Assembly (NCBI RefSeq): GCF_026571515.1
Contig: NW_026859228.1
Span: forward strand, 248,001 to 312,000
DNA length: 64,000 nucleotides
From: Ruditapes philippinarum
Lineage: Eukaryota
Direction: 5' to 3'
This document shows positions 16,202-61,755 of the stretch, piece after piece (positions within the stretch are counted from its first letter, which is position 1; every line of letters starts with the position of its first letter). The position numbers were made by a program, and so were the translations under genes. The notes beneath the pieces were generated by a model. It did no database searches. It saw nothing but the letters and a program-made list of their open reading frames with translations, and had not been told where the DNA came from.

Positions 16202-18281
16202 TTCAGGTTGAAGAGGTGGTCTATTGGTATCATTTCGAATTATTTCATCAAATACAAACTCCATTTTGTCTATATCATCTCCTACTATTGCATATGTCTG
16301 GGGGGGGGGGGAAAGAAAAACAAATAATTACATTTCATTTACAATGTTAACCATTTACAAATTGTAATTGTAAGTTGTAATTATCAGTCTATGTTTAAAT
16401 GATCAGCTGAGCTCATAGAGGCAAAAGATTATCCATGCAAAAGTTTTAATCTTTTTGTCTGGCACAATTAGACTGTATAAATGTTGATTGTTAAATGCAG
16501 GTGTCTAGCCACTAATAAAGTTGTTTGCTATAAGACCATATGATCTGTTTCACCTAAACCAAAAGAAACAAACTTAAAATTACCTGTGCAAAAGTTTTCT
16601 CCTTATATTTTCTGTCAATGATGTTTCCCTGTCCCCTAAACTACCCGCAGTTTTACCAAGGCTAGGTGGGCCTCTAGAGGCAGGAGTCGCACTTTGTTTA
16701 CCAGACTTCATATCTACTTTTGTAGACTGAAAAGAATGTATACTAAAAATGTTGATCTTTATACTTAATAAGAAATTTTTGATAAAAACAAATATTTTAT
16801 GAGAAATATACTTTGATTAATAGATGACATCAAAATCTGTCAACATGTACTTCGGCCTTTATTTTTTGTAATAATATGATAACAGCGGGGGACCGGACCT
16901 TTTTCCAAAACAACATTAAACTTAAGTTTGTAATTCATTCATTTGTGTAAATACAAGTAAAGAAATAATCTTTAAAATCTTGGATAGAAAAAATGTAATC
17001 TTTATACTACTAAAACTGAAAGAATTAGTTTTTGCCACCAGTATAAGTCGAGCAAATATGCACATCTGTGATTTCACACAAGACTCTATACTACTGACTG
17101 ATCAACTGTGAAAATTTTCTCTGAATATCCCCAAAAATTGACAAATGACAGTTCAAATATTGAAAGTAGTGCAGGTAATTTTTGTAAGAAATGCAGTACG
17201 CTAAATGTTAATAATACCTCTTTTGAAACTTTCCTCCTTTGTCTTTATCTTTAGCTGGTGTAGGAGATTTATTATCAGGTTTTTTGCGGCTTTTTCATCG
17301 CCTGTTCCACTCTTACGTCATTTACCATCACCTACAAAATAAACAAACTATATTTCTTAAACAATCATGTATCATAATTATGATTCTAATATTTCTTAAA
17401 CACATTGAAATATTTCCTTAAATCATATTCTTCTGCAAAATTCATAATTTAGGTCAATAACAGATAATGGTGATCAGTCTATAAAAACTACCACTTTTAT
17501 TGGTCAATTTTTAAATATTTTCTAGAACAACAACTAATCAGATGTTGAAGTTTTAGACTGGTCGCCAAATATCTGGAAAAAAAATGAAAATTTTACACAT
17601 TTACTAAATATAAAAAAAATAGATTTTTTCTAAATGATATAATAATGTTTACATTATTTTTGGTGACTATAATAATTATGTAATGGGACAAAATGTTTCA
17701 ATATATATTAAATAAAATAAATAATGATGATAAATGAGAAGGAATAAGTGAAATTCCTAAAATATGAGAACAATATCATGGAATATAAATAATGCTCTAG
17801 CTATTATTGTACAGGATCAAAATAATGGAGTAAAATATGAATACTTGAATGATATGGAACAGGTGTTTTTCTAATATACAAACATGTTAATATCACTTTT
17901 AAACAAAACACATGAACAAAATTACATAAAGTTAGCAAAGACAACTTCACATGTCTATAAAAAGTGTGTCTTACTTCTTGAAAATAATTTTTGTTCTTTG
18001 AAAATTTTTGGTTTTATTCCAATAAGTGAAGTAAATGCAATATGTAGAAAAAAAAGAAAACAAATGTTCGGCAGATTTAATTAGTAAAGAATTTTAAAAA
18101 GCCTTTTTATCACTTCAAACTAGCAACGTTTCTGCACACTTTGTGTGTTTGTGTGCATATGTGTCTCATCTACACATTGTTTTACTTAATGTACTATCTT
18201 TAGATAGTAATTTAGGGTTACTAGGAGGTTTTAAAGAGGTTCTAGATGCCCGCCATCTCTCACGAGATTCCTGTTTTGATT
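16202..18281 (-). pseudogene. Decayed MYCBPAP-like exon cassette (unit 1)
   Basis: Terminal exon 16202-16297 has TAA changed to GAA. Penultimate exon 16584-16726 has a 52-nt deletion. The Lys-rich exon at about 17218-17331 has a TGA and indels. The 96-nt exon 18186-18281 is open. Confidence 0.75.
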
Positions 18282-21200
18282 CTAACAAATAAAAATAATG
18301 TACCAAAATATTAAAAAATAATCAAAGCTAAGTAAGCTTCTTAATCTATGAAATATTCTTAAAATATAGTTGATATTCATATTTCTGAATATTGATATGA
18401 AATTATGTTTTCATGCTCAACTAACATTCAAATACACAACAGTACGTGTACAGTGTTTTTGTTTCTTTTCTCTTTTAGAAAGTCAAAATAATCATATCTG
18501 TGAAAAGTTAGTTGTCTGACAAAAATCTCTTCTCTGCATATGAAAATTTATCGTTTACAGATGTATAATTATTTACTATTTCAAATAAAACCCTCAACTA
18601 GTAGGGAGACCTTTATGTATTATGCAAAAACAAACAAATAAAAAAAACACTGCTATTTCTTAAACACTGAATAATCAAAAATATTCAAGCAGCATGCAGC
18701 ATAATGTGTGCAACAGGCATCATGCAAATGTTCTGTTTCCAGACAAAGCAGAAGGAAACATTTTAATGTCTTGTACAATTTTCATGATAGAAACAACTGC
18801 GGTTGTTCTTTACAAAGATTAACAACAAAAAACAACATAAAACCACAACAAAAGTATCTTTATTGCGAACATTCTAAAGTTAGATGAAACTTTTATATAC
18901 TTGTGTAAATGAGCAAGTTATCTTCACATAAGGATATAAGTTTCGGAACTTATCCACCATTCTTTCACAAAAGAGCATTTAATCAAAATGAATTTTGGGT
19001 AAAAAATAGTAACAGATCGTTTTATTTCTTACAAAAACTGTGATCAAAGGATTCTCAAATACATACTTTTATATATTCCATTTTTATATGTTGTGTACAA
19101 TGTTTTAAAATATGTGAATATATGTAATAGCTAGCTTACACAATATTGTCATTTTCCATACATTTCACATGACTCTAAAGATCCCAATAATTTTTAAAGT
19201 TGCTTTTGAGAAACAATATATCAAAATTGCAATTCAAACTAACACTGGCCATTTGACACATATTTGTTTATAGTTGCTCTGAAAAGTGAGCAGTTACATT
19301 CAAGAAAACTGATTGCGAAAAACAATAAACCCATTACCAGTTTATAAGGTTTCTAATTGTCTACAGCAGACATAAGGATTCTTGTTTGTAACAAAGGAAG
19401 TGACGATATCCTGAGACTGTTAAGCAGCTTAAAACATATGACATTTTGGACCAACGAGAGCAAATATTTATAACCTTTAAGCATACTGTGATATAGAACA
19501 TAAATTTATGCTATTTGCTAAATGGAAAAAGAAATATGATAGGCTAATATTACATAGGGATGTGTCGTCATTAATTTTTTTATCAACTGAGATATCGGTT
19601 ATAAAATAAGACGAGTCACACGAATAAAATAAGCTGATTCACACGATATGACATTGTAGCGACTGATTATCTTTATTTGCTGACATTATCCACATGCTTT
19701 ATTATTATCAATACTTTTATTGAAGACTAAATAAAATCTTTACCTCGACTGTCACAATTTCCTCACAGTTTTCATTACTTCTAAAATATATTATGCTACC
19801 CCAATTTTGTGTTTAGAATCAACGTTCAGAAAAGTGATTTCAAAGACTATTACATTCTTTTTCGTAGATTCTTTTTTATTTTACATGTCTATCTTGATAA
19901 GTTTCAAATATGTGGACAACATCGACATTATGTCGTAACGCATCTTAAATAGAAGCATGTCTAATAAAATAGATCTGACAGAGAGAGTTTTATTCTTAAG
20001 ATTTTGATCCCGTAAACTGATGAAAGGATGGAAATTATAGAAATGTTTAAAAAGACATTCAGCCTTTATTCAATTATAATATTGACCATGAACTTGTGTC
20101 ATGTTTATAAATATCTTCATGCACATGTTCGCTGGTTAGTTCTGTTGCAGAGAAGCTGTTCGAAAGACCTCTCAGAACTTCTAGATTTAGGTTACGCTTT
20201 TTATTACTTGGGGACCATACGCCGCTTTTCATGGAATGGCACTACTGTGTCACATTGAAGGTTCCATGATAACCGCCGTATGAACACATCTGCGGATGTT
20301 TCTAAATTCAAAATTTTACTATTTCATGTTTAAATGTTGAATTCTGCTTAAGCCGGTGCTAGGGGCGTGGACGGTAACTTGCACTTACCAGTACCGTCCA
20401 TGAACAGGCTCAATCAAAGCCTGCCAAATTTTACAATTTTATCGTGTTGGGCGTTCTTCAGGGATTCTGTTTTTCTCTATTTTATTTGGTAGAAACAAAT
20501 TCGGAAATGTGTACCATTTTGTCCCGTTTTTCGTGAAACCCGACCAAAAAAACGTATGCTTTCCGTGCAAAATGAGAATGAGGAATAAGTAAAAAGAGAA
20601 AGTTTTGGCTAAAGCGAATGAGGCAAAAGAGATCTTAGTTTAATCATTTGAGCACAAATAACTTTTGAAATGTACATTCAGTAAGGCAACTTTTCTCTCA
20701 TCATTGAACACACAACGTCTTCTGTTTAAAGAAACATGTACCATTGACATTGAATCAGTTACACCCAAAATCAATAAAGGTCCACAGTGAGCTACAGGCA
20801 AATTTTCTGTGAAGTTTGATCACTATAGATATTGCTGTTATCAAGTAGTTTTATGTCTTAACTCTCAACATTCTGTAACAGAAAGTAATTAGCCTTTGTC
20901 ACCTTTACAGTGCCGGGCCATTCTCTGTGTAGTCTAACCAGGCATTACGCTGTTGGTAGAACATTTCTTGTACTCTGCTTTTGAGGTCCCCTAAACTTTA
21001 AATGGACTGTTCAAAATTCAAAGCGAAGGAAATATTGTTAGTCAATGAGCAGGCTAATGGTTGAGGTCATATTTACCTGGAAGCTCAATCCTTTGAACTA
21101 AAATGCAAAATTGGACAACAACTAGCTATATTCTAGGTCGTTTGATTATTTTTATTGAATCTGTTCTTCAGTTATCTTACACATCTGTACGTTCTGAAAT

Positions 21201-25972: not shown

Positions 25973-26113
25973 TTAAATTATGATGAATATAGTGTAAATA
26001 AATGTATATTTGCATGGGCTGTGGATAAAGGAAACACTAGATGTAGAAACTGGTTTCTCCACTTTGTGTTTACAATCTGAACAGTGCTCTGGTCTGAACA
26101 GTGCTGGTGTATT

Positions 26114-27361: not shown

Positions 27362-27457
27362 TTAAGGTTGAAGAGGTGGTCTATTGGTATCATTTCGAAT
27401 TATTTCATCAAATACAAACTCCATTTTATCTATAGCATCTCCCACTATTGCATATGT
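27362..27457 (-). CDS. MYCBPAP: MYCBPAP-like gene, terminal coding exon (cassette of unit 2): TYAIVGDAIDKMEFVFDEIIRNDTNRPPLQP*
   Basis: Polypyrimidine tract and AG acceptor at 27459-27458, phase 0, 96 nt to TAA. Joined to the preceding exon it reads EDPIIDRKYKEKIFAQTYAIVGDAIDKMEFVFDEI, which resembles the MYCBPAP C-terminal helix as I recall it (not database-checked). Confidence 0.65.
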   Translation of the reverse strand, partial: TYAIVGDAIDKMEFVFDEIIRNDTNRPPLQP

Positions 27458-28001
27458 CTGAAAAAAAAGAAAAATGAAAAACAAATAATTACATTTCATA
27501 TGCAATGTTAATCATTTATAAATGCTGTAATTATCAGTCAATGTGTAAATGGCCAGCTGAGCTCAAACAGGCAAGAGATTATCCATACAAAAATCTTAAC
27601 CTTTTTGTCTGACACAATTAGACTTTATAAATGTTGATGGTAAAATGCAGGTAAACAATACTTGTTTTGATACAAATCCGCTTCCAATATATATCATAAT
27701 CTACCTTTGAATTAATGAGCAGAACAAAACAAAATTGCAAGTTTTAAGCTAAATGTGAACATTTTAATGTTAACAAAATGTGTTGAGTTGCATTTTAATG
27801 TTAACAAAATGAGTCTGGTTGCATAATAAAATGCAAGTAAATGTAATTCCGATATAGGGAATAGCTTAAGTACTGAAAATTATCAAGCATTGTACAATTG
27901 GGCACCTGAGGTGTCTATCCACTAATAATGCTGGAAATTCGCCATATGAACTTTACAATATCTATGTGACATGAAACCAAAACAAACAAACTTGAAATTA
28001 C

Positions 28002-28196
28002 CTGTGCAAAGATTTTCTCCTTATATTTTCTGTCAATGATGGGATCTTCATGGGCCAGTGAAGTTTGCATCATACTGGTTGGTGAGCCCGTTCTTTCCCT
28101 GTCCCCTAAACTACCCGCAGTTTTACCACGGCTAGGTGGGCCTCTAGAGGCAGGAGTCGCACTTTGTTTACCAGACTTCATATCTACTTTTGTAGA
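28002..28196 (-). CDS. MYCBPAP: MYCBPAP-like penultimate exon (unit 2): STKVDMKSGKQ...KEKIFAQ
   Basis: 195 nt, open, bounded by ttttttttag and CAG|gtaatt, phase 0-0; conserved in four units. Confidence 0.7.
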
Positions 28197-28656
28197 CTAA
28201 AAAAAACGTATACAAAAAAATGTTGATATTTTTACTTAATAAGAAATTTTTGATAAAAACAGATACTTTTATCAGTTGTATGAGAAATATATTTTGATAA
28301 ATAGATGACATCAAAATCTGTCAACATGTTCTTCGGCCATTTTTGTAATAATATGATAATAGCATTGGACCGGAGCTTTCTTTTCAAAATAACATCAAAC
28401 TTTAGTTTTAAATTCATTCATTTGTGTAAATACAAGTAAAAAAAATAATCTTTAGAATCTTGGATTGAAAATGTTTAACCCTTAATTTTGGGAAACTGAA
28501 AGGAACAAGTTTTTGCCACCAGTATAAAGTCAAGCAATTATTCAAATTTTTACAGTCACACCAGGCTCAATACTGCTGGCTGATCAACCTAGAAATTTTA
28601 TATGAATATCCCAGAAATTGACAAAGAACAGTTCAAACAATGAATCATAATAATAC

Positions 28657-28772
28657 CTCTTTTGAAACTTTTCCTCCTTTGTCTTTATCTTTAGCTGGTG
28701 TAGGGGCTTTCTTATCAGGTGCTTTTGCGGCTCCTTTATCCCCTGTTCCACTCTTACGTCCTTTACCATCAC
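28657..28772 (-). CDS. MYCBPAP: MYCBPAP-like Lys/Gly-rich exon (unit 2): DGKGRKSGTGDKGAAKAPDKKAPTPAKDKDKGGKVSKE
   Basis: 116 nt, bounded by ttttgtag and GAG|gtatta, phase 1-0, compatible with the next exon. Confidence 0.65.
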
Positions 28773-30244
28773 CTACAAAATAAACAAATTATATTTCTTT
28801 AACAATCACGTATCATATGATTTTATTATTTCTTATACACATCAAAATAGTTCCATAAATCATATTCTTCTGCAAAATTCATAATCTAGTCAAATAACAG
28901 ATAAGGGTGATCAGTCTATGAAAACTAACACTTTCATTGGTCAATTTTTAAATATTTTCTAGAGTAACAACCAATCAGATTTTGAAGTTTTTGACTGGTT
29001 GCTAAATATCTGTTTTTCGTCTTACTTACAGTGACTTTCTATTCTCTCTATTTTTGTCTCTTCATTTAAATGCAAGAAAAAAATGAAAATGTTACACATT
29101 TACTAAATATAAAAAGAATAGATTCTCTTAATTATATGAATGTTTACATTATTTTTGACGACTTTGATAATGGAAAAAAATGTTTAAATATTTATTAACA
29201 AATGATCTTAAATGAGAAGGAATAAGTGAAATACTTAAAATATGAGAACAATATCATGGGATATAAATACTGCTCTAGCTATTATTATACAGGATCAAAA
29301 TAATAGAGTAAAATATGAATAATTGAATGATATGGAACAGGGGTTTTCTAATATACAAACATGTTAAGATCACTTTAAACAAAACACATGAACAAAATAA
29401 CATAATGTTAGCAAAGACAACTTCACATGTCTATAAATTGTTTGTCTTACCTTTTGAAAATAATTTTCGTTTTTAAAATCTTTGGTCTTGTATCAATAAA
29501 GTGCAGTTAAAGCAATATATAGAAAAAAAGAAAACTAGATGTTCGGCAGATTTATTTAGTAAATTTTTTTTAAAAGCCTTAGATATAAAAATGAGACTTG
29601 CACTAAGTTACTATAGATGCTGCAGTCAAAGTCAACCCTTCTTGCAAAAAAACAGCCATACTTGATTTTGAAATGGTTATTTGAAGACAAATTTCTTCGA
29701 AATAAAATATACGGTACATGTATACATGTGGTAATGAAAACTTCAACATTAAACCAACAAACACAGGGCGAACAAGGTATATTGGATAGGTTGCAGTAAA
29801 ACTTACTACTCCCGGTACTTTATCTGACAATCCTTGCCCAACTGTAAAAACCCAACAAACACAAAACATTCAAAGCTTTCAGGGGAAGCAACTGAGACTA
29901 AGTAACAATGCAAAAGGGAGACTACTTCTAGTTAACGACCTAAATGTTTGTAATGCAATAAAATACAAATAAATGTAGAATGATATGTACTGCTTTGTTT
30001 TTAAAATAATTTAGAAATAGCAAAGAAAAAACTTTGATCAAACATGATGTTTTTACTTAAGCATTTATCAAGAGTTAGTGACCTTGCTATTTTAATGAGG
30101 TTCTGGGTTATGATGGTTCTTTGGTAAAAAGTAAGTAAAGTAAGATGCTATTTGAAATGTAATTACTCATATGAGTACAGACAGATTTTATTCCCTTGTT
30201 TCACTTTTAGTTAATGACCTATTTAATGACTATAATTAAACAAA

Positions 30245-30700
30245 CAAGAGCTGTCGGTAGGACAGCAACGCTCGACTAGTCTTAGTGCTTGATAGTAAAA
30301 GAGCCTTGATAATGTAAAATTTTCTGAGTTTATAACAAAAGGACAGAATTTTTCTTTAAAATCCATGTTACAGTTATAGGCCATAGAGAGAGTATTATAT
30401 TATGCTCTCAAAAAAGAGTATAAAATTTCAAACTTGTTTCAATAGAATATGAAAATATCTGAGGTGGTATGCAAACCTAAATGAAAATTCTAAGTTGAAA
30501 AAGGGGCATAATTCTGTCAACAGGTTGGGATCAAGATGGTGAACAAGTGTGCAAAGTTTCAAAGCCATATGTCAATACACTTTAAAAATATTTGAGGTAT
30601 TAGAAAAACTTTAACATGAAGTGGTTACGCCGACACCGACGCCGATGCTCGGGTGACTACAATAGCTCTACTTATTCTTATCAAATAGTCGAGCTAAAAA
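30245..30700. mobile_element. Non-autonomous Helentron/HINE-like mollusc repeat (second copy at 41025-41462)
   Basis: Begins aacaagagctgtc; subterminal inverted motif GCTCGACTA/TAGTCGAGC; (gacgcc)n microrepeat; inserted in an A-run; empty site at about 860-875. Confidence 0.65.
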
Positions 30701-31143
30701 TTGTTGTAAGGATATGAAGAAATGATGGATAAATTATGATAAATAATGAATTATTATAAATAATGCTATAATCCTGTGTAAATAATGAGTATTATTTGCA
30801 AACTAGAATAATATGCTGTGTAAATGCTGCTATTACAAAGAAAAATGCAAGTGTATAGACACAACGATACGTTTGTCATGACATAGTTACAGAAATGAGA
30901 TATATTTATAATTTCCTATTCCTGGCATAGTATGAAGAATAATATACATAGCTAGTGTTGGACATACGCCTCCAATCCATCAATAATAATAGACATGATC
31001 ACAACTTCACAAGGGTAAAAGACATGAAAATAACAATACATTTTGTGTAACCCATACACCAACCAAGTCACTTCAAACTAGCAACGTTTCTGCACACTTT
31101 GTGTGTTTGTGTGCAAATGTGTCTGATCTACACATTGGCTTAC

Positions 31144-31239
31144 TCAATGTTCTATCTTCAGATAGTAATTTAGGGTTACTAGGGGGTTTGGAAGGGGTTC
31201 TAGATGCCCGTCTACTCTCACGAGATTCCTGTTTTGATT
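31144..31239 (-). CDS. Upstream 96-nt symmetric exon of the same - strand gene (unit 2): SKQESRESRRASRTPSKPPSNPKLLSEDRTL
   Basis: Bounded by ttctgttag and gtaagc, phase 1-1, open. Homologues of the same length at 1280-1375 (TAG), 18186-18281 (open) and 41907-42002 (TAG). Confidence 0.55.
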   Translation of the reverse strand, partial: NQNRNLVRVDGHLEPLPNPLVTLNYYLKIEH

Positions 31240-33315: not shown

Positions 33316-33735
33316 TCAAACAAGTAACGTGACAATGAATATTTTACTTACGTACACTGATAATCTTATCAGGTGACTAAATATTTACCAAACGACCAGA
33401 GGGTAAACAAGATTTCTACCTTTATTTTTATTTTCTTGTATAAAAAATACATTCTGCTTTATGTAACACTAGCATACGCCTTTAATTGAAATACAAGTAG
33501 AAAAACTAACATATAAAGTTTTAGAATTAAAGTATAAATTTATAATATTTTACTTATCAGGTCAAATATTTTTAAAAGGGTATTTCTGAAAATATGCCAG
33601 TAATTTGATTGCCCGTCAGAAATTGATACTAGTGTTTTAAATGTAAATGGATCGGTCGAATTCCATGTATTTAACATCATAATTGATAAGATTTTGAAAA
33701 AAAATTCTTCACATATCATATTTTTTCAGACAGGA

Positions 33736-35434
33736 ATGGAGGTTCCTGGTAAATTAGGTCTAGGAGATCTAAATGATGATGACTCGACATTAATATGTCT
33801 TCCATGTGATATTGATGGTTTGAAGGAACCTGCTTATGGCTTCTGTCAGGACTGCCAGGAGCATCTATGTGAAACGTGCTACAAACATCATAGACGTGCA
33901 CGTCCATTTAAAAACCATGTACTCATTGACAAAGAACCCATGCCAAAGACCAGGGTAAATGCAGCAACAACATCTGAGGATACAGCCGACTATTGCACGA
34001 AACACCAAGACAAACCACTAGAATTTTATTGTAGGGATCACACATCTGTGGCTTGTTATGTGTGCGTTACATTAGAACACAAACAGTGTAAGGTGGACTA
34101 TATTCCTGATGTTTCTGGAAACCTGTCTAACGAGATGACAGATATATTAGAACAAATGCAAGTATTGAAGCAAAGCTTCACAAGAACTAGACCAGAGTCA
34201 TGCCAAAGTTGTTGAAGATATCAAAGTCTTTAGGAAAGAGATAAATGAATGTTTGGACAGAATGGAAACCAGAATATTAAAGGAAGCTGACACAATTGTA
34301 AAAGAAGCAAAGGGTAAACAGGAAACCATAAAAGCTGCTTCTTTAGAGATAACTGAAGAACTTGAATGTTCACATTCATTGTTAAGATCATTAAAAGAAC
34401 AGAACAAGCAAACTAAGCTTTTTATCGAGATTAAAAACGTCAGAAAAAGTCTGCCAATACTGACAGATAAGGAAAAGAACGTATTGCGTGCAAATACAAC
34501 AAACAAATATATTCAATTTACCCGCAACACAAGCATTATAGATTTTCTTAAGACTGATAATAATTATGGAACATTGTCAACATTTGTACAGCCGTGCCCA
34601 GATAGTGTAGTAGATTTACAATATATAGATACAATAGACATGAAACAGACATCAGAAAATGAAAAATGTAACATTACTGGAATAATAATGATTGCTCCTA
34701 CGAAAATGGTTGTTTCTGAAAGCAGTAACAGAAATATAAAACTGATCGACGTTGAGAAAAATGTAGTTGTAACAGAGGTAAAGATGTGTTCACGTCCGTT
34801 GGATGTTATAACTCTTCCAGAAAAAAAACTTGCTGTAACTTTGGCCGATGAAATGTTTCTTCAGATATTGTCTTATTCTGACGCGAAACTTTCATTAGAT
34901 CAACGTATAGATGTAGGAGAAAAGTGCGCTGGTGTTGCTTATGGCCAGAATAAATTGGTTATCTCTAGTCGGGCTTCAAAGAAAATAATCATAATGAATC
35001 TTAAAGGAGAAATTCTCAATGTTCTTGGTTCTCTTGCTATATTCTATGGGCCTATTAGAGTTTTGATAGGCAAGGATGAAACGTTTATATATGTATCGGA
35101 TACAGATTGGAGTCAAAGTAGTAAGGTTTTGAAAATGGATTGGAAAGGAAATGTTAAAAGCGTTTTTGAAGACCAAAGTCACAAATTTCCGTACGGTCAA
35201 CAACAATTAGAAGATAAGACTATACTGGTATGTTACAGTGAAAGTAACACTATTCTGAGACTGTCAAGCAGCTTAAAGAAATGTGATATTATTGGGCTAG
35301 AGAAAGCAAATATTTATTTTCCAAAAGCTGTAACATACTGCGACAGAGAACAAAAACTGTGCGTAAGTTGTTCATCAGAGAAAGATGACTGGCGGGCTGA
35401 TATTGTGAAAGTGTTCCATGTTAAATGGAAATAA
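33736..35434 (+). pseudogene. TRIM-like gene copy 3 (subtype B), frameshifted and lacking the putative first exon
   Basis: A 60-nt segment of copy 2 is replaced by 28 nt at about 34159-34186 (net -32 nt), splitting the gene into ORFs 33736-34215 and 34253-35434. About 3 kb of upstream sequence, including the conserved donor site, is deleted. Confidence 0.85.
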
Positions 35435-38105: not shown

Positions 38106-38201
38106 TTAAGGTTGAAGAGGTGGTCTATTGGTATCATTTCGAATTATTTCATCAAACACAAACTCCATTTTGTCTATAGCATCTCCCACTATTGCATATG
38201 T
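38106..38201 (-). CDS. MYCBPAP: MYCBPAP-like terminal coding exon (cassette of unit 3)
   Basis: Same peptide as 27362-27457 with 2 synonymous differences; acceptor intact. Confidence 0.65.
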   Translation of the reverse strand, partial: TYAIVGDAIDKMEFVFDEIIRNDTNRPPLQP

Positions 38202-38763: not shown

Positions 38764-38958
38764 CTGTGCAAAGATTTTCTCCTTATATTTTCTGTCAATG
38801 ATGGGATCTTCATGTGCCAGTGAAGTTTGCATCATACTGGTTGGTGAGCCCGTTCTTTCCCTGTCCCCTAAACTACCCGCAGTTTTACCACGGCTAGGTG
38901 GGCCTCTAGAGGCAGGAGTCGCACTTTGTTTACCTGATTTCATATCTACTTTTGTAGA
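38764..38958 (-). CDS. MYCBPAP: MYCBPAP-like penultimate exon (unit 3)
   Basis: 195 nt; same peptide as 28002-28196 with 3 synonymous differences; AG and GT intact. Confidence 0.7.
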
Positions 38959-39431: not shown

Positions 39432-39547
39432 CTCTTTTGAAACTTTTCCCCCTTTGTCTTTATCTTTAGCTGGTGTAGGGGCTTTCTTATCAGGCGCTTT
39501 AGCGGCTCCTTTATCACCTGTTCCACTCTTACGTCCTTTACCATCAC
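39432..39547 (-). CDS. MYCBPAP: MYCBPAP-like Lys/Gly-rich exon (unit 3)
   Basis: 116 nt; same peptide as 28657-28772 with 4 synonymous differences; AG and GT intact. Confidence 0.65.
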
Positions 39548-40625: not shown

Positions 40626-43600
40626 CTGTAAAAACCAACAACACAAAACATTCAAAGCTTTCAGGGGAAGCAACTGAGACTAAGTAACAATGCAAAAGGG
40701 AGACTACTTCTAGTTAACGACCTAAATGTTTGTAATGCAATAAAACACAAATAAATGTAGAATGATATGTACTGCTTTGTTTTTAAAATAATTTGGAAAT
40801 AGCAAAGAAAAAACTTTGATCAAACATGATGTTTTTACTTAAGCATTTATCAAGAGTTAGTGACCTTGCTATTTTAATAAGGTTCTGGGTTATGATGGCT
40901 CTGTGGTAAAAAGTAAGTAAAGTAAGATGATATTTGAAATGTAATTACTCATATGAGTACAGACAGATTTTATTCCCTTGTTTCACTTTGAGTTAATGAC
41001 CTATTAAATGACTATAATCAAACAAACAAGAGCTGTCGTTAGGACTATTCTTAGTGCTTGATAGTAAAAAAAGCCTTGATAATGTAAAATTTTCTGAGTT
41101 TATAACAAAAGGACAAATTATTCTTTAAATCCATGTTAGGGTTATATGCCATAGAGAGAGTATTATATTATGCTCTCTTAGAAGAGTATAAAATTTCAAC
41201 TTGTTTCAATAGAATATGAAAATATCTGAGGTGGTATGCAAACCTAAATGAAAACCTAGTTGAAAAAGGGGCAAAATTCTGTCTACAGGTTGGGATCATG
41301 ATGGTGAACAAGTGTGCAAAGTTTCAAAGCCATATGTCAATACACTTTAAAAATATTTGAGGTATTAGAAAAACTTTAACACAAGTGGTTACGCCGACAC
41401 CGACGCCGATGCTCGGGTAACTACAATAGCTCTACTTATTCTTATCAAATAGTTGAGCTAAAAATTGTTGTAAGGATATGAAGAAATGATGGATAAATTA
41501 TGATAAATAATGAATTATTATAAATAATGCTTTAATCCTGTATAAATAATGAGTATCATTTGCAAACTAGAATAATATGCTGTGTAAATGCTGCTATTAC
41601 AAAGAAAAATGCAAGTGTATAGACACAACGATACGTTTGTCATTACATAGTTACAGAAATGAGATATATTTATAATTTCCTATTCCTGGCATAGTATGAA
41701 GAGTAATATACATAGCTAGTGTTGGACATACGCCTCAATCCATCAATAATAACAGACATGACCACAACTTCACAAGGGTAAAAGGCATTTAAATAACAAT
41801 ACATTTTGTGTAACCCATACACCAACCAAGTCACTTCAAACTAGCAACGTTTCTGCACACTATGTGTGTTTGTGTGCAAATGTGTCTGACCTACACATTG
41901 ACTTACTCAATGTACTATCTTCTGATAGTAATTTAGGGTTACTAGGGGGTTTTGAAGGGGTTCTAGATGCCCGTCTGCTCTAACGAGATTCCTGTTTTGA
42001 TTCTAACAGAAACAATAATGTACCAAAATATTAAAAAATAATCAAAGCTAAATCAATGAAAAATTCTTAAAATATAGTTGAAATTCATGCTTTTTAAATT
42101 TGATATAAAGTTATGTTCTAATGATAAAAATGACATTCAAATACACAACAGTACATGTTCAGTGTTTTTGTTTCTTTACTTTTTAAAAAGTCAAAAAGTC
42201 AAATCTGTTAAAAGTTCGTTGCCTGAAAAAAATATATTATTTGCATATGAAAAAATTTCTAGATATATAACTTTGTATTATTTTAAATAAATCTCTCAAC
42301 TAGTAGTGAGACATTTATGTATTATGACGAAAAGAGAGAAAGCACTGCTGTATCTACACAGATATCAGAGATTTAGGTAAAATGTTTCCAACACTGAATA
42401 ATCACAATTATTTCAAGCAGCGTGCAACATAATGAATGCAACAGGCATCATGCAAATGTTCTGTTTCCAGACAAAGCAGGAGGAAACATTTTAAAATCTT
42501 GTACAATAAACGTTTTCATGCTAGACACAAATGAGTTTGTTCTTTACAAAACTTTAACAACAAAAAAAAAACAAATAAACATAAAACAACAAGAAACGTA
42601 TCTTTATTGCCAACATTCTAAAGTAAGATGATAATTTTATATAATTGTGTAAATGAGCAAGTTATCTTCATATAAGTATAGTTCAATTTTTTTTGCTTTC
42701 TTTCAGCAGAATTATTAAAGTTTCGGAACTTATCCAGTTTGTTCCAAATAAACTTTAGGGGAAACATTTTAGTAACAGATCTTTTAAAAAAACTATGATC
42801 AGAGGAAACGTAAAGTTGTTTTTTCTATAGAACAAAAACAACACATTTGTTTATTATGTAACATTCCTAAATGCATGCTCGTATTATATATTTATATATT
42901 TAATATGTACAATGCTGTGTACAATGTTTACAAATATGTGAATATATGTAATAGCTATACTGTCATTTACCATACATTTCACATGACTTTAAAGATCCCA
43001 ACAATTTCTAAAGTTGCTCTTGCGAAACTATATATCAAAATTGCTATTCAAACCAAGACTAATCGTTTAACACGTATTTGTTTACAGTTGCTCTTTAAAC
43101 TGGTCAGATGCACATATGATTCAACAAAGAAAAGTTATGAAAACTTATTTGGATACAAATGTTAAATCCATTTTTTTGAAGTTTATTACTATCTACAGTA
43201 GATAAAAGGATTCTGGTGTGTAACAAAGAAAGTGACTATCTCCCGACACTGTTGAGCAGCTTAAAAGACGTATCATTTAGGACCAGAGACAGCAAATACG
43301 TTTTATCCTTAAGCATACTGCGATAGAGAACATGAACTGTACGCTAGTTGTTGAATAGAAAAGGAAATATTGAAAACTGACATTTTAAATATCAATGTGA
43401 AATGAACTTAAATGATAGACAGGCATGTTTGGCCATTAAACTTTTTTGTCATCTAAGATTAATATAGTGAAACTATACACATAAAATAAGACCATTCACA
43501 CGATATGACGTTGTAGCAACAATAAAAGTCTTCAAACAAATTTTCTATGAAGTTGTATTACTAGAGATTTTGCTGTTATCAAGAAATCTTGCGGAAGTAG

Positions 43601-48650: not shown

Positions 48651-49031
48651 GGTATGTCAATTGTCATAATTAAAATAATATTTGATTGACTATTTGTTAA
48701 GATCATAGATACATTTTATCGCGCCTTTCCATAACTTTACCATGGAGTGTGTCCGTGAACCAAACATACTATTGGTGTGATGATGAATATTAAAAGTTAC
48801 AATATAAATTTAAAATCTAAAGTTTATGAATATTTATACAGTAAAACAGAAAACAATGAATTCTTCAATTGATATGTACGGTTGTTAAGCAGGAACTGAA
48901 TAAACTGATAAAGTGTTAAACGCAAAGTAATAGGTTTATCTCATCCCATGTATATAAGACAACAATTTAAATGATTTAGAAATAAATATCAATATAAATG
49001 AAGAACTTATATTTTATATTTTTAGGCTGGG

Positions 49032-50921
49032 ATGGAGGTCCCAGGGAAATTAGATCTAGGAGCTCTAAGTGCCGAAAACTTAACATTAGTATGTCTCCCG
49101 TGTGATAATGATGGTTTGAAGGAACCAGCTTATGGCTTCTGCCAGGACTGCCAAGAGCACCTATGTGAAACATGCTTTAAACATCACAGACGGCCACGCC
49201 CAATGAGAAATCATGTCCTTATTGACAAAGAATTCATGCCAAAGACTCAGGTAAATGCACCTACAGCATCTGAGGATACGGCCGACTTTTGCAAGAAACA
49301 CCAAGACAAACCACTAGAATTCTATTGTAGGGATCACACATCTGTGGCTTGTTATGTGTGCGTTACACTAGAACATAAGCAGTGTAGGGTGGACTATATT
49401 CCTGATGTTTCTGGAAACTTGTCTGACGAGATGACTGTTATATTGGAACAAATGGAATCGTTGATTACAAAATGTAAATCAAACATAGAATATGTTAGCA
49501 AAGCTGCGCAAAATCTAGACCTTAGTCATGCTAAAGTTGTTGAAGATATCAAAGTCTTCAGGAAAGAAATAAATGAATGTTTGGACAGAATCGGAACAAG
49601 CATATTAAAAGAAGCTGACACAATTGTAAAAATTGCAAAATGTAAACAGGAAACCGTAAAAGCTGCTTGCTTAGAGATAAATGAAGAGCTTGAATGTTCA
49701 CGTTCGTTGTTAAGTTCATTAAAAGAACAGAACAAGCAAAATAAGTTTTTTATTGAAATGAAAAACGCTGAAAAATGTCTTCCAATACTGACAGATAAGG
49801 AAAAGAACGTATTGCATGCAAATACAGCAAACGATTGTATTCAATTTACCTGTAACGCAAGCATTATAGATTTTCTGAAGACTGAGAAAAGTTATGGAAC
49901 ATTGTCAACATTTGTACAGCCGTGCCAAGATAGAGCAATAGAATTACAATATATAGAAACAATAGACATGAAACTGAATTCAGAGAAAGAAAAAAGTAAC
50001 ATTACTGGTCTGGTAATGATTGCTCCTACGAAAATGGTTGTTTCTGATAACAGTAACGAAAAAAATATAAAACTAATTGACGTTGAGAAAAAAGAGGTTG
50101 TAACAGAGGTAAAGATGTCTTCAATGCCACTTGATGTTATAACTTTTCCAGAAAAAAAGCTTGCTGTAACTTTAAAAGGTGAAACGTTTGTTCAGATATT
50201 GTCTTATTCTGACGCGAAACTTTCATTAGATCAACGTATAGATGTACGAGAAAAGTGTAATGGTGTTGCTTATAGCCAGGATAAATTGGTTGTCACTTGC
50301 CAAATATCAAAGAAAATAATCATTATCAATCTTGAAGGAGATATTCTCAATGTTCTTGGTTCTCCTGCTATATTCTATGGGCCTATGAGAGTTTTTATCA
50401 GCAAGGATGAAACGTTCATATATGTATCGGATAGAGATTGGAGACAAAATAGCAAGTTTTTGAAAATTGATTGGAAAGGAAATTGTTAAAACCGTTTTTG
50501 TAAGTTAATCTTAATTGTATCACTTGAAAATTTTATCGACATATAGAGGAGTTTTTAAATTTTACAGCAAATCTATATGGAAGATAGAGACTATAATAAT
50601 TTGCACTGATTTATTGTTACAGAGACCAGTGGATACAGAAATAAGTGAGACATGTCAAGCCTAGACTTAAAGAAATGGATGTGGTAAGTTTGATTGGACA
50701 AACAAGACTGAGATGAGGAGCTAACAGTCTCATTTTCGGACAATGGATTCAATAGGAGGAGAAAAAAGGCTGTAACACTATGACTTGTGACAGAGACGAA
50801 AAGAATAGTACTGCATATGCGGTCTGTTCAGAAACTCAGAACCACCAGAGTAACACAAGAAGATCTGGAGAGGAGAGGGCTGATATTGTGAAAGTATTCC
50901 ATGTTAAATGAGGATATATAA
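49032..50921 (+). pseudogene. TRIM-like gene copy 4 (subtype A 5' end); 3' end garbled, possibly intact in the real genome
   Basis: Clean 485-aa ORF to 50489. The stretch 50490-50920 follows the paralog 3' end but is riddled with small insertions; the 3' flank after it is clean again. Confidence 0.75.
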
Positions 50922-51417: not shown

Positions 51418-54400
51418 TTAAATTATGATGATTATAGAGTAAATAAATGTATATTTGCATGGGCCGTGGATAATGGAAATACTTGATGTACAAATTGATA
51501 TTTTATTGCAGAGAATAGTTAAATTCGCTAAGACTAAACATGAACTCTCAATAACCGTTTTAACGCAAGGAATTAGAACAATTTACTGATGTTTTATTTG
51601 AATGTCATGCAGCCCACTGATGTGAATGGATGTCACCTTAATAAGCTTGGGGTATATAGAACTTTCAAACATTCTTATGCTATTGAACACTATTGCAAAA
51701 TTATTTTTTCCATTTTCGTCATGATATATCTCCCTTCTCTAAGTTTAGTTGCAGTGTGGCGCCAATTAGGCCATAGATTGGGAGATATAAAAAAATCTTC
51801 CAGAAACATAAAAGCATGTCAGTTGTGTGATAATTGTGTTGAATCAGAGCTGCTCCATGTTATGCTTAAATGTCTTATTATGTTAGGGAGAAACAAATAA
51901 TGTTTCATTAACCTGTAATGTCAACTGTAATTTTAATGTGTTAAATGTTTCAGAAAAAAATAATAAAAATTTTGATATGGTTAGAAAAACACCTGTTGTA
52001 ATATGTTGAAAACTAGAAACAATGCTCTATACAATTTGTCTACTTAATGTTTTGAATTTTGTATATATGTTGAACTCTACATTGTACAGTGTAAGTTTTT
52101 AGCTATTACTATATGTTTTAATTTTGTATATAGTCTGAATTATCAGTCGTTAAGGATTTACTATGTTAGAAATTCCTTGTTAATCTGTTTGTTACTAGTC
52201 CTAAGCGATGATACATATTTTATGGGGCTTATTACCCTAATGCATCTAGTGATTATTTTCCAAATCAAATCCAATTTTATCTTTCATTCATTTCTATTTT
52301 AACTAACTTATAAGATTACACTGGAAATATAATAAAGTTGCTGTCTAAAATTAGCAAGGAAAATGCCTAACCTTTATTGTGAGGATTATGTGTAGGAATG
52401 TGAAAGTCTGGACATAATACCTAATTATATAAATAGTCTTTTACAATTCTACCCCACAATGGCTTTGCGCGATGTATATATATATGTATATGTAATTTTA
52501 TGTATTGATGTGATTAATTGTATAATGATGATATTTGAATGAAAGATAAATAAATAAATGTTAAAGACCAAGCTTATGTCTTTTTAATCATGTTTAGTGG
52601 TGAAATGCTCTCGAATATCGTGTCTCTCATTGACATATTCAATGAAACCATAATCACGATAGTCACCTTTGACTTGCAGTTTTCTCTTACATTTTCTCCA
52701 CTTTGTGTACAGTGCTCTGGTCTGAACAGTGCTTATGTATTCTATTTCCACAGACAATAATTATATCCCTTAAAGACGTCTGCTTTCTCTAGTTTTCTTG
52801 TTAAAATAACTGTATGAAGACTCTTGTGACCTCGAATCTCAATGGCGACACCTTGAGCAGTTGAATTATTGAAGTTCCAACTGCTCTCTAGATGGGCTAT
52901 GATGGGGGTTATTGCAAGGTTCGTTTTCATCAGATGTGGCATTAAACACATGTTTACGCGGTCTGTCACACTATAAATAAGGGCACGCTGGACAACATTA
53001 AGCTTACTTGAATTGACTGTTATAATGTTTTTCATCTTCAAAAGACACAAATGCTGTAAAACAAAATTTAAATATTTCAGCAGTTATTAAATGTTAAATC
53101 TCAGCTTTCTATCAAAAACAAAAACATTTCAATTATTATGTTTACCTCTGTTGGTTTAGGTACAATGCTGCACAAAAAAGTCTTTTTGTCATCACATTTG
53201 TATGTAAACATAAACAATCCTAGACACAAATGAGGTTGTTCTTAACAAAAACTTAACAACAAAAAAAAACCATAAAACAACAAAAAACGTATCTTTATTC
53301 CTAACATTCTAATGTAAGGTGATAATATTATATAATTGTGTAAATGAGCAAAGTTAATCTTCACATAACGGTAAAAGTTTCGGAATTTATTCACTATACT
53401 TTCACAAAATAGCATTTGATCCAAATGAACTTAGGGAAAAAATAGTAAACAGATCGTTTCATTTCTTACAAACTGTGATCAGAGGAAGCGTAAAGTTTTT
53501 TTTCTATAGAACAACACAAACACATTTGTTTTTGTATGTCACTTCTTAAATATATGGTGTTTTATATGTACAATGTTGTGTACAATGTTTACAAATATGT
53601 GAATGGCTAGCATATAAAATACTGTAATTTGTCTTTCATATGACTTGACTCTAAAGATCCGAATAATTTCTAAAGTTTGCTCTTGAGAAAACAATATATC
53701 AAAATTGCAATTCAAACTAATACTGGCCATTTGACACATATTTGTTTACAGTTGCTCTAAAAAGTGAGCAGTTACATTTAAGAAAACTGATTGGGCAAAA
53801 CAATAAATCCATTACCAGTATATAAGGTTTATTACTGTTAACAGCAGACAAACGGATTATTGTCTGTAACAAAGGAAGTGACGATATCCTGAAACTGTTA
53901 AGCAGCTTAAAACATATGACATTTTTGGACCAACGAGAGCAAATATTTATAACCTTTAAGCATAATGTGATAGAGAAACATAATTTTACGCTATTTGCTC
54001 AATAGAAAAAGAAATATGATAGGCTAATATTTTCTAAATATCAGTGTGAACTAAACTAGAATGATACATAGGGATATGTCGTAATTGAAAAAAGCTCTAT
54101 CATCCGAGATACCGGTAATTAAATAAGTCGATTCACACGAATTAATGACATTGTATCGACTATTTATCAATATTTGTTGACATTATCCACATGCTTTATT
54201 ATTCTCATTAGTTTTATTGAATTGCGAGTATCTTATTCACAGACTAAAAAGAACCTTTATCGCGACTGTCACAATTTCCTTACAGTTTTCATAACTTCTA
54301 AAAGATTTTATATTTCCCAACTTCGTGGTTAGAATCAACGTTCAGAAAAGTGCTTATTTCAAAGACCAATACACTCTTTTTCGTAGATTCTGTTTTCTTT

Positions 54401-57400: not shown

Positions 57401-57981
57401 AGACAGTGCCCAGGCCTTTCAAGCAGATATTAATAGAATATATTGTATAAATTTTATGTAAAAAATGACAAAGTTATTTATCTAATATGTATACTAATAC
57501 AAAGAGTCTTAAAGTTATTACAAATAAACCTGATTTTTCATATACGTGTATAGACAATTTTAATTAGTTAGTGTTAATTTCATCTTCAAATTATGCACGA
57601 ACGGAAGTCGACATGGCTTTCTTTTGGGTGACCCCCAATTATTTTCTCTTACTTTAAGATCATGATAGATTAAAATGAATTCGATATGCGATTACATTCT
57701 GCTTTATGTAACACTAGCATACGCCTTTAATTGAAATACAAGTAGAAAAACTAACATATAAAGTTTTAGAATTAAAGTATAAATTGATAATATTACTTTA
57801 TCAGGTCAAATATTTTTAAAAGGGTATTTCTGAAAATATGCCAGTAATTTGATTGCCCGTCAGAAATTGATACTAGTGTTTTAAATGTAAATGGATCGGT
57901 CGAATTCCATGTATTTAACATCAAAATTGATATGATTTTGAAAAAATAATTCTTCACATATCATATTTTTTTCAGACAGGA

Positions 57982-59712
57982 ATGGAGGTTCCTGGTAAAT
58001 TAGGTCTAGGAGATCTAAATGATGATGACTCGACATTAATATGTCTTCCATGTGACAGTGATGGTTTGAAGGAACCTGCTTATGGCTTCTGTCAGGACTG
58101 CCAGGAGCATCTATGTGAAACGTGCTACAAACATCATAGACGTGCACGTCCATTTAAAAACCATGTACTCATTGACAAAGAATCCATGCCAAAGACCAGG
58201 GTAAATGCAGCAACAACATCTGAGGATACGGCCGACTATTGCACGAAACACCAAGACAAACCACTAGAATTTTATTGTAGGGATCACACATCTGTGGCTT
58301 GTTATGTGTGCGTTACATTAGAACACAAACAGTGTAAGGTGGACTATATTCCTGATGTTTCTGGAAACCTGTCAGATGAGATGGCCGATATATTAGAACA
58401 AATGGAATCGTTGATTAAAAAATGTAAATCAAACAAAGAATATGCTTGCAAAGCTGCGCAACATCTAGACCAAAGTCATGCAAAAGTTGTTGAAGATATC
58501 AAAGTCTTCAGGAAAGAGATAAATGAATGTTTGGACAGAATGGAAACCAGAATATTAAAGGAAGCTGACACAATTGTAAAACAAGCAAAATGTAAACAGG
58601 AAACCGTATTAAATGCTTGTTTAGAGATAACGGAAGAACTTGAATGTTCACATTCATTGTTAAGGTCATTTAAAGAACAAAACAAGCAAAATAAGCTTTT
58701 TATCGAGATAAAAAACGTCGGAAAAAGTCTGCCGATATTGATAAATAAGGAAAAGAATGTATTGGATGCAAATACAACAAACGAATGTATTCAATTTACC
58801 CGCAGCACAAGCCTTATAGATTTTCTTAAGACTGTGAATAATTATGGAATATTGTCAACATTTGTACAGCCGTGTCAAGATAGAGCAATAGATTTACAAC
58901 ATATAGAAACAATAGACATGAAACAGACATCAGAAAAAGAAAAATGTAACATTACTGGTATGGTTATGATTGCTCCTACGAAAATGGTTGTTGCTGATAA
59001 CATAAACAAAAACGTAAAACTGATCGACGTTGAGAAAAACGAGGTTGTAACAGAGGTAAAGATGTCTTCACATCCGTTGGATGTTATAACTCTTCCAGAT
59101 AAAAAGCTTGCTGTAACTTTGTTGGATGAAACGTTTGTTCATATATTGTCTTATTGTGACGCGAAACTTTCATTAGTTCAACGTATAGATGTCAGAGAAA
59201 AGTGTCATGGTGTTGCTTATGGCCAGGATAAATTGGTTGTATCTTGCAATAAATCAAAGAAAATAATCATTTTGAATCTTCAAGGAGAAATTCTCGATGT
59301 TCTTGGTTTTCCTGCTATCTTCTATGGGCCTCGCAGAGTTTTGATCAGCAAGGATGAAACGTTCATATATGTATCGGATACAGATGGGAGTCAAAATAGT
59401 AAGGTTTTGAAAATGGATTGGAAAGGAAATATTAAAACCGTTTTTGAAGAACAAAGTTATAAATTTCCTTACGGCCAACAACAATTAGAAGATGACACTA
59501 TACTAGTGTGCTACAGACACAGTAACACTATTCTGAGACTGTCAAGCAGCTTAAAGAAATGCGATATTATTGGACTAGAGAGAGCAAATATTTATTTTCC
59601 AAAAGCTGTAACATACTGCGACAAAGAACAAAAACTGTACGTAAGTTGTTCATCAGAGAAAGAAGACTGGCGGGCTGATATTGTGAAAGTATTCCATGTT
59701 AAATGGATATAA
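57982..59712 (+). CDS. RING-less TRIM-like protein, 576 aa; copy 5 (subtype B)
   Basis: Intact ORF colinear with copy 2. Same B-box1, B-box2, coiled coil and propeller architecture; acceptor tttttttcag before ACAGGAATG. Confidence 0.93.
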   Translation: MEVPGKLGLGDLNDDDSTLICLPCDSDGLKEPAYGFCQDCQEHLCETCYKHHRRARPFKNHVLIDKESMPKTRVNAATTSEDTADYCTKHQDKPLEFYCRDHTSVACYVCVTLEHKQCKVDYIPDVSGNLSDEMADILEQMESLIKKCKSNKEYACKAAQHLDQSHAKVVEDIKVFRKEINECLDRMETRILKEADTIVKQAKCKQETVLNACLEITEELECSHSLLRSFKEQNKQNKLFIEIKNVGKSLPILINKEKNVLDANTTNECIQFTRSTSLIDFLKTVNNYGILSTFVQPCQDRAIDLQHIETIDMKQTSEKEKCNITGMVMIAPTKMVVADNINKNVKLIDVEKNEVVTEVKMSSHPLDVITLPDKKLAVTLLDETFVHILSYCDAKLSLVQRIDVREKCHGVAYGQDKLVVSCNKSKKIIILNLQGEILDVLGFPAIFYGPRRVLISKDETFIYVSDTDGSQNSKVLKMDWKGNIKTVFEEQSYKFPYGQQQLEDDTILVCYRHSNTILRLSSSLKKCDIIGLERANIYFPKAVTYCDKEQKLYVSCSSEKEDWRADIVKVFHVKWI

Positions 59713-60001
59713 ATATTACAAAGGAATATGTCGTTATCAAAAAACTGACATTGTCTTTTCTTCGTAAACTGATACGTGATAAATAAAGATGAGTGTTCAT
59801 ACAGTAGGACCTTGCAGGACCAGGTTATGTTAAGTAGGGAACAATAGCTTTCATGCATCAATTTGGCGAGTCATAGAGCAATGAGATTTTTACTTGGCTT
59901 GGGCCAGTACACTATAAATGTATCTGTACAAGGTGAAATAGGGTAGAATCATTTTTGTTGGAAAACTTTTTGTAATCATTAAAGATGTTGTTTAAATTAT
60001 G

Positions 60002-60201
60002 GTTTGGTTTAAACATATTTATTGAAGCTCGATTGCGAAACAAGTTCTTGCAACTTATATTAATCACTTTCGAGTCCGCTTCCTGGAACCAACCAGTACT
60101 GGTGTCATATGAAGAAACATGGTCGTGACCAGAGTAGGGCTAGAACCCATGATCTCTGTGTTGAGAGGCAAACACCTTAACCACTAGGCCACCGCTCCCC
60201 C
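60002..60201 (-). mobile_element. tRNA-derived SINE, same insertion
   Basis: Homologous to 25773-25972 with the same TSD. Confidence 0.9.
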
Positions 60202-60915
60202 TTAAATTATGATGAATATAGTGTGAATAAATGTATATTTGCATGGGCTGTGGATAAAGGAAATACTAGATGTAGAAACTGGTTTCTCCACTTTGTGTTT
60301 ACAATCTGAACAGTGCTCTGGTCTGAACAGTGCTGGTGTATTCTATTTCCACGGACAATATATCCATTCTGCATTATCTAGTTTTCTTGGTAAAATAACT
60401 GTATGAAGGCTCTTGTGACCTCAAATCTCAATGGCAACACCTTAAGCAGTTGAATCATTGAAGTTGCAACTGCTCTCTAGATGGGCTATGATGGGTGCTC
60501 AATCACACAAAAAAAGTCTTTTTGTCATCACATTTTTATGAAAACATAATCAATGTTCAATAACAACATAAAATATATAAGTTTGATTCTTAATAAATTT
60601 TATTTCATAATTCATGAATATATAAACTGTTTCCATTCATAACTCCCTGGGTAAAATCACTTTTGAGACAACTGGACTCAAGTTCAGTCATAAATTACAT
60701 GCTCGTGTTACAATTATTTTTTTAAATTAATACATTGAAAATAAATAATATCACAGTTTTTTCACTTTGTATTAATATGGTTATGCATTACATCTATGTT
60801 AAGTCTTACTTTTCATTGTTCATGTAGGACGACATAACTTCGTCTTGAAATTTAAAATGTTTGAAATATCACAGTCAGTAAAGATGATGAAGGTCTTTTA
60901 AAACGTTTTTAAGGG

Positions 60916-61755
60916 TTAAGGTTGAAGAGTTGGTCCATTGGTGTCATTTCGAATTATTTCATCAAATACAAACTCCATTTTGTCTATAGCATCTCCCACT
61001 ATTGCATATGTCTGAAAAAAAAGAAAAATGAAAAACAAATAATTACATTCCATATATACAATGTTAATCATTTACAAATGTTGTAGTTATCAGTCAATGT
61101 GTAAATGATCAGCTGAGCTCATACAGGCAAGAGATTATCCATACAAAAATCTTAACCTTTTTGTCTGACACAATTAGACTGTATAAATGTTGATGTTTAA
61201 ATGCAGGTAAACAATACTTGTTTTGATACAAATCTTCTTCATATATATATCATAATCTACCTTTAACTTAATGAGCAAAACAAAACAAAGTTGCTAGTTT
61301 AAAGCTAAATGTGAACATTTTAATGTTAACAAAATGTGTCTGGTTGCATAATAAAATGCAAGTAAATGTAATTCCTATATCAGGAAGCTGAAGTACTGAA
61401 CATAATCGAGCCTACAGATTGTAGGTGGTTTTACGTAGACACCTAGTACGCTTGACTTGTACATCTGGACACCTGAGATGTCTAGCCACTAATAAAGTTG
61501 GAAATTTGCTATAAGGCCATATGATCTGTGTCACCTAAACCAAAAGAAACTTAAAATTACCTGTGCAAAGATTTTCTCCTTATATTTTCTGTCAATGATG
61601 GGATCTTCATGGGCCAGTGAAGTTTGCATCATACTGGTTGGTGAGCCCGTTCTTTCCCTATCCCCTAAACTACCCGCAGTTTTACCACTGCTAGGTCGGC
61701 CTCTAGATGCAGGAGTCGCACTTTGTTTATCATACTTCATATCTACTTTTGTAGA
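60916..61755 (-). pseudogene. Truncated MYCBPAP-like exon cassette (unit 5)
   Basis: Exons 60916-61011 and 61561-61755 are open but carry several nonsynonymous changes (MKYDKQ, GRPSSG). Upstream exons are removed by a deletion near 62125. Confidence 0.7.

What the first reader, a model, noticed from the sequence alone, without database searches (positions are those of the whole stretch)
16202..61755. The antisense exons resemble the MYCBPAP C-terminus, so part of the TRIM array may be nested in its intron
Seen: the spliced peptide is a Lys/Gly/Asp-rich tract followed by EDPIIDRKYKEKIFAQTYAIVGDAIDKMEFVFDEI..stop. From memory, vertebrate MYCBPAP ends with a Lys-rich tract and a DP....KY...L.......L......L....DEL helix. 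I found no upstream exons of the gene here, so the gene body should lie beyond 64000. The cassettes closest to that side are broken (unit 5) or deleted (unit 4). If no intact cassette lies further right, the last functional exons are at 27-42 kb and TRIM copies 4 and 5 (perhaps 3) sit antisense inside an intron of a conserved cilia/sperm gene.
Basis: partly seen in the sequence, partly recalled or inferred. Interest (0 to 1): 0.7.

Follow-up and report, generated by a model that had tools for sequence, protein, structure and literature searches.

The report
Gene tail copied with neighbouring array
In a clam genome, the last four exons of the cilia gene MYCBPAP are repeated along with a neighbouring array of TRIM-like genes, but an intact copy of the gene's end lies beyond the whole array, so the TRIM genes are likely ordinary downstream neighbours and not nested in its intron.

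Summary
The homology is right; the nesting is not supported. The antisense exons are the MYCBPAP C-terminus: 88% identical to Mercenaria MYCBPAP, and the final helix aligns to mouse MYCBPAP. An intact four-exon tail with canonical splice sites lies 15-20 kb beyond the window's right edge, right of the last TRIM-like gene (stops 7.2 kb apart, tail to tail), directly after three single-copy MYCBPAP exons. The gene body lies on contig C15316, which overlaps that end and carries its own tail. In one RNA-guessed assembly a spliced contig matches this tail's exon e1 with 0 of 116 differences; the intact inner copies differ at 4, 4 and 5. A second assembly fits no copy exactly. The six inner tails are likely passengers of tandem duplication of a TRIM + tail unit. 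Three stay nearly intact (20 synonymous, 1 non-synonymous change); intronic mosaic tracts suggest sequence exchange with the functional tail as the cause. Their use as alternative ends is not excluded (about 10%).

The parts
60916..61755 (-). tail copy U309: e2 (61561-61755) and e3 (60916-61011) only; e1 and eA deleted. The intact parent tail lies outside the window, at contig C7715 326957-332421 (15-20 kb beyond position 64000), followed by three single-copy exons at 335.2-337.2 kb
   Evidence: parent tail:
57931..59712 (+). B-box TRIM-like gene, open frame 593 aa stop to stop; one more intact copy lies outside the window at contig 318046-319791, the last of the array
52906..53217 (.). junction where the tail cassette of the 49-54 kb unit is deleted
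49026..50489 (+). TRIM-like copy, truncated at 487 aa
38106..42002 (-). tail copy U287: eA 41907-42002 (in-frame stop), e1 39432-39547, e2 38764-38958, e3 38106-38201; e1-e3 differ from the parent by 9 synonymous and 0 non-synonymous changes
33604..35434 (+). TRIM-like copy split by a frameshift
27362..31239 (-). tail copy U276: eA 31144-31239, e1 28657-28772, e2 28002-28196, e3 27362-27457; intact; e1-e3 5 synonymous, 0 non-synonymous changes; annotated as stand-alone LOC132755695
23715..25484 (+). B-box TRIM-like gene, open frame 589 aa stop to stop
16202..18281 (-). tail copy U265, decayed: eA 18186-18281, e1 17218-17331 (2 indels, stop), e2 16584-16726 (52-nt deletion), e3 16202-16297 (stop lost)
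12359..14105 (+). TRIM-like copy split by a frameshift
1280..1375 (-). decayed eA of tail copy U244 (its e1-e3 lie left of the window)

Best explanation
The antisense exons are six extra copies of the last exons of MYCBPAP, likely carried along as passengers when a unit made of one TRIM-like gene and the facing 3' end of MYCBPAP was tandemly duplicated, while the intact tail to the right of the array likely ends the working gene. Shown: tail-to-tail layout, a common break in homology at about contig 333.0 kb just upstream of exon eA, single-copy exons beyond it, decay of three copies. Inferred: unequal crossing-over built the array; later ectopic recombination or gene conversion swaps tracts between the working tail and the copies, which keeps some promoterless copies free of amino-acid changes and makes the working tail itself a patchwork.
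For: Intact parent tail right of all 15 TRIM-like copies and colinear with the single-copy exons. The overlapping contig C15316 holds the full gene with eA and e3 in the same position and no TRIM in 1-70 kb. X3 spliced contig: e1 0 of 116 differences from the parent, e2 1 of 195, GT-AG joint; inner copies differ at 4, 4, 5 sites in e1. Both listed spliced contigs end exactly at the first base of e1, as expected if several upstream exons join there (inference). 14 of 14 RNA-guessed holder rows share 0.27-0.32 of the parent's words, against 0.28 computed for the parent's spliced product and at most 0.17 for any one inner copy (weak, only 2 of the 14 were laid). Exchange: the parent is 0-5% from U287 over 500 bp of intron but 19-30% just beside it, and 0-2% from U207 in 7 of 9 windows across e2-intron-e3; block trees pair the parent with U287, U276 and U207 in turn. 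U207 joins a decayed eA (14 changes, stop) to parent-like e1-e3.
Against: U287, U276 and U207 show 0, 0 and 1 non-synonymous changes where about 15, 6 and 10 would be expected from their non-coding divergence if neutral (rough Poisson estimate), which selection on the copies would also explain. The X4 spliced contig differs from the parent at 4 sites in e1, and the two listed are alleles of the window copies; raw reads in X23/X24 carry one of those alleles in 10 of 10 reads, though no spliced read was listed there. The joint from the single-copy exons to e1 was not observed, as those exons were outside the laid stretch. No reads were laid on the inner copies. e1 and e2 on C15316 are too degraded to compare.
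Confidence: 0.85

Rival explanations
1. Alternative 3' ends: MYCBPAP normally ends at the right-hand tail, but some transcripts skip it and splice to an intact inner tail (window 38-42 kb or 27-31 kb), so several TRIM genes sit in a facultative intron and the inner tails are kept by selection.
For: 20 synonymous against 1 non-synonymous change in three inner copies, with splice sites and stop kept; X4 contig carries two variants found in the window copies.
Against: It needs read-through of an intact tail with poly(A) signals and an intron of over 40 kb; the product would be the same protein; X4's difference counts (4 in e1, 2 in e2) fit neither U276 (4, 0) nor U287 (5, 3), and U207 (4, 2) lacks one listed variant; intronic mosaic tracts explain the conservation without selection on the copies.
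Confidence: 0.09
2. One reading: the only working tail lies at window 27-42 kb and TRIM copies 3-5 are nested in a constitutive intron.
For: The two cassettes nearest the right edge of the window are indeed broken or deleted.
Against: An intact tail lies further right and a spliced contig matches its e1 exactly.
Confidence: 0.02
3. The array is partly an assembly artefact in which different haplotypes of one or a few units were joined in tandem.
For: The assembly holds both haplotypes here (C15316 and C7130 match the two ends of the young array) and no further young units were found on other contigs; allelic tails would show only synonymous changes.
Against: Six inner units break from the parent at the same place (about 333.0 kb) and continue with sequence shared among units; their non-coding divergence (8.6-18.5%) exceeds that between the two haplotypes in clean stretches (4.0-4.6%); 10 young TRIM copies are too many for two alleles. 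Read depth was not tested.
Confidence: 0.04

Closest known systems
MYCBPAP / FAP147 (Pfam PF14646), C2a projection of the ciliary central apparatus
   Same: The tail is the C-terminus of the clam orthologue: the clam and Mercenaria proteins score 410-422 bits on PF14646, and the Mercenaria one matches mouse 9ijj_v at E 2.4e-122 and FAP147 at 1.4e-13; function from the abstract of PMC13345628.
   Different: The window copies hold only the last 2-4 exons, lack the PF14646 domain and any upstream exon, and so are gene fragments.
Partial gene duplication within tandem or segmental duplicates, with gene conversion (reviewed in PMC3449122; human cases in PMC6169893; both seen as search listing and abstract start only)
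   Same: A duplication unit that cuts through a neighbouring gene leaves 5'-truncated copies; conversion homogenises them (general knowledge).
   Different: Here the same tail is copied at least six times, and the exchange appears to reach the working tail of a conserved single-copy gene.
Lineage-specific TRIM expansions (fish finTRIM PMC2657112, primate TRIM clusters PMC3228819; listing only)
   Same: Tandem, fast-turnover array with intact and broken copies.
   Different: These clam genes have B-boxes but no RING hit in Pfam; the C-terminal region gave an NHL hit in 1 of the 3 database proteins scanned.

Membership tests
MYCBPAP orthologue (parent gene) | PF14646 domain above the curated cut-off | tested here: met
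   P0016 410.5 bits, cut-off 24.5; exons on C15316
MYCBPAP orthologue (parent gene) | C-terminal DP....KY helix shared with vertebrates | tested here: met
   P0010 aligns to 9ijj_v 743-918, E 0.001, the only hit at E up to 10
MYCBPAP orthologue (parent gene) | Localisation to the C2a projection | not testable with these tools
   inferred from mouse (PMC13345628 abstract)
Nested gene (TRIM inside a host intron) | No intact terminal exons of the host between the gene body and the nested gene | tested here: not met
   intact tail at contig 326957-332421, between the gene body and every TRIM copy
Nested gene (TRIM inside a host intron) | Host transcripts splice across the nested gene | tested here: inconclusive
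   X3 matches the parent e1; X4 fits no copy exactly; the joint to single-copy exons was outside the laid stretch
Partial duplicate (passenger) of a neighbouring gene | Copies lack the 5' part and share one breakpoint | tested here: met
   homology to the parent stops at about 333.03 kb in the six units that reach that far; upstream exons single-copy
Partial duplicate (passenger) of a neighbouring gene | Copies are not under selection of their own | tested here: inconclusive
   3 of 6 decayed; 3 of 6 have fewer amino-acid changes than neutral, with mosaic tracts
TRIM (RING-B-box-coiled coil) | B-box | tested here: met
   PF00643 above cut-off in 3 of 3 array frames
TRIM (RING-B-box-coiled coil) | RING finger | tested here: not met
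   no RING family hit at E up to 0.01; upstream exons were not looked for, so 'TRIM-like'

The most novel reading that the evidence does not exclude
The intact inner tails are working alternative 3' ends of MYCBPAP, so a conserved cilia gene can splice across several antisense TRIM-like genes, and the array acts as a reservoir of interchangeable tails that both serve and overwrite the gene's end.
Probability: 0.1. Interest if true: 0.6.

Novelty: new member of a known kind. Interest (0 to 1): 0.22.

Why it matters
As it stands this is an ordinary outcome of tandem duplication and a trap for annotation: the database lists one inner copy as a separate uncharacterised gene and splits MYCBPAP over two contigs. 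The one point of interest is that the working end of a conserved ciliary gene appears to exchange sequence with its copies in a fast-changing array, a small natural case for measuring conversion under purifying selection. If the inner tails were used as alternative ends it would be an unusual gene layout.

Tried and rejected
Raw RNA runs X23 and X24 (4-5% of each read) gave up to about 12x depth on exon bins and up to about 6x on repeat-free intron bins, on both strands, with no spliced read listed at e1-e2: not informative on expression. No RNA holder listed on record; X1-X14 are guesses. A sequence join between C7130 and C15316, which would imply a one-unit haplotype, was looked for and gave only a weak alignment of about 130 bases: undecided. 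The C15316 tail as a source of allelic variants: e1 and e2 too degraded. Synteny: the 3 Mercenaria hits among 50 TRIM-like relatives lie on scaffolds of 91.3 and 97.8 Mb, Mercenaria MYCBPAP on one of 81.9 Mb; weak, and no relative's genome could be read. Paper searches: MYCBPAP + bivalve 0 papers; TRIM + bivalve + expansion + NHL + B-box 1 unrelated paper. Earlier findings near this place: none. No fold or complex prediction was run, as it would not bear on the layout.

Full report
Observation. The window is C7715:248001-312000 of a 337,378-bp contig. It holds five plus-strand B-box TRIM-like frames, two open over 589-593 aa and three split or truncated, in tandem units about 70-90% alike. On the minus strand lie four copies of a small exon cassette. 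I call the exons eA (96 nt, optional in the database isoforms), e1 (116), e2 (195) and e3 (96, with stop).

Identity. Exon e2 alone retrieved 9 proteins among 37 candidates, among them MYCBP-associated protein-like of Mercenaria at 88% identity and models labelled Ruditapes philippinarum on a contig of this length. Their C-termini continue with e3. The Mercenaria protein matches the MYCBP-associated protein chain 9ijj_v (E 2.4e-122; I take it as mouse from the sperm central-apparatus structure listed, not from the call itself) and FAP147. The 220-aa tail model aligns to that chain's C-terminus, EDPIIDRKYKEKIFAQTY against DPLVMEKYTQRLHAEVY, through to DEI/DEL. MYCBPAP is a C2a projection protein whose loss gives ciliary disease in mice (PMC13345628, abstract and outline only).

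Layout. The genome search found 7 copies of e2, all on C7715, one of them right of the window. Over the whole contig there are 15 TRIM-like copies between 140 and 320 kb, 5 older and 10 younger. The right-hand tail (326957-332421) has AG/GT sites at every exon and an open frame. Its stop is 7166 bp from the stop of the last TRIM copy, facing it. Upstream of it lie three exons found once each on the contig (about 335.2, 336.3 and 337.1 kb); then the contig ends. The PF14646 domain is on C15316, where the gene runs from 55.8 kb down to 3.3 kb. C15316:1-15 kb is colinear with C7715:320-337 kb at 4.0-4.6% difference in clean stretches, so it is likely the other haplotype; it has eA and e3 in the same position, and no TRIM hit in 1-70 kb. 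The six inner units that reach that far lose homology to the parent at about 333.03 kb.

Expression. The laid stretch covered e3 to eA and 2.5 kb beyond, but not the single-copy exons. Two RNA-guessed assemblies each gave a contig with the e1-e2 joint (444 skipped, GT-AG). In X3, e1 has 0 differences from the parent and e2 has 1; the intact inner copies differ in e1 at 5 (U287), 4 (U276) and 4 (U207) sites. In X4, e1 has 4 differences and e2 has 2; the two listed are shared by U276 and U287, but the counts fit neither, and U207 lacks one of them, so I read X4 as an allele not in this assembly, without proof of which locus it belongs to. The tables were cut (953 differences and 503 joints not shown). 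The two raw runs showed no listed spliced read and low, unstranded depth; 10 of 10 reads at one e1 site carried the non-parent allele, which unspliced reads from several copies would give. The word shares (0.27-0.32 in 14 of 14 RNA-guessed holders) fit the parent's spliced product (0.28) better than any inner copy (0.05-0.17) or all pooled (0.205), but unspliced inner copies together would reach 0.48, so this is weak.

Why some copies are intact. U265, U244 and U309 carry frameshifts, deletions or many amino-acid changes. U287, U276 and U207 have 9, 5 and 6 synonymous and 0, 0 and 1 non-synonymous changes over 134 codons, with 14%, 8.6% and 11% non-coding divergence. Neutral decay would give about 15, 6 and 10 (after subtracting allelic divergence; rough). 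Either the copies are used or their exons were recently taken from working alleles. The second has direct support: near-identity with the parent runs through introns in tracts that switch partner (U287 upstream of e1, U276 in the e1-e2 intron and UTR, U207 across e2-e3), and trees of these blocks disagree, with support 0.96-1.0 in three of four blocks. Direction of exchange is not shown, and it does not exclude use of the copies.

Mechanism. A TRIM-like gene came to face the 3' end of MYCBPAP; a duplication with one end inside a late MYCBPAP intron created a TRIM + tail unit; unequal crossing-over multiplied it; copies without promoter or gene body decay unless refreshed. The layout and decay are shown; the history is inferred. 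Whether the adjacency exists in other clams was not testable; the 3 Mercenaria TRIM-like hits are on other scaffolds than MYCBPAP.

Comparison and novelty. This works like known partial duplicates in tandem or segmental duplications (papers seen as listings only). My search found no paper on MYCBPAP in bivalves. It is a new instance of a known kind. No supplements were read. Verdict: homology confirmed, nesting not supported, interest low; the alternative-ends reading stays open at about 10%.

Noticed in passing
contig C7715 about 320.9-325.9 kb (L001-L002), right of the window: A DIRS-like retrotransposon: 1056-aa open frame with reverse transcriptase and RNase H, an overlapping tyrosine-recombinase frame, and inverted terminal and internal repeats. 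It sits between the last TRIM copy and the MYCBPAP stop and is absent from C15316 and from the inner units, so it is likely a recent, polymorphic insertion. 'DIRS' is my recalled name for this layout.
   Followed up: partly
contigs C7130 (L039-L041) and C15316:1-3300: They match the left and right ends of the young TRIM array; C7130 has one older and one young TRIM and no tail copy. The second haplotype may have far fewer units (copy-number variation) or be unassembled in between.
   Followed up: partly
contig C377 77392-77580 (L023): A second weak PF14646 match, 38% identical to MYCBPAP residues 623-685; probably a related domain in another gene.
   Followed up: partly
C15316 about 4000-5250 and 1-800: Sequence with many apparent homopolymer errors garbles MYCBPAP e1 and e2, which would explain why the database model there is partial.
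   Followed up: no
contig C7715 190.9-191.3 kb and 231.5-235.2 kb: Older remnants of the tail (an e3 fragment; pieces around eA and upstream of e1), so more than six copies once existed.
   Followed up: no
L025 2971-5130 (intron between eA and e1 of the parent): A tandem-like repeat of about 165 bp period with depth of several hundred to thousands in RNA runs on both strands; absent from U276, U287 and C15316.
   Followed up: no
window 2489-2776, 43197-43366, 53862-54098: Short decayed fragments of a TRIM-like 3' end inside the spacers of the units.
   Followed up: no
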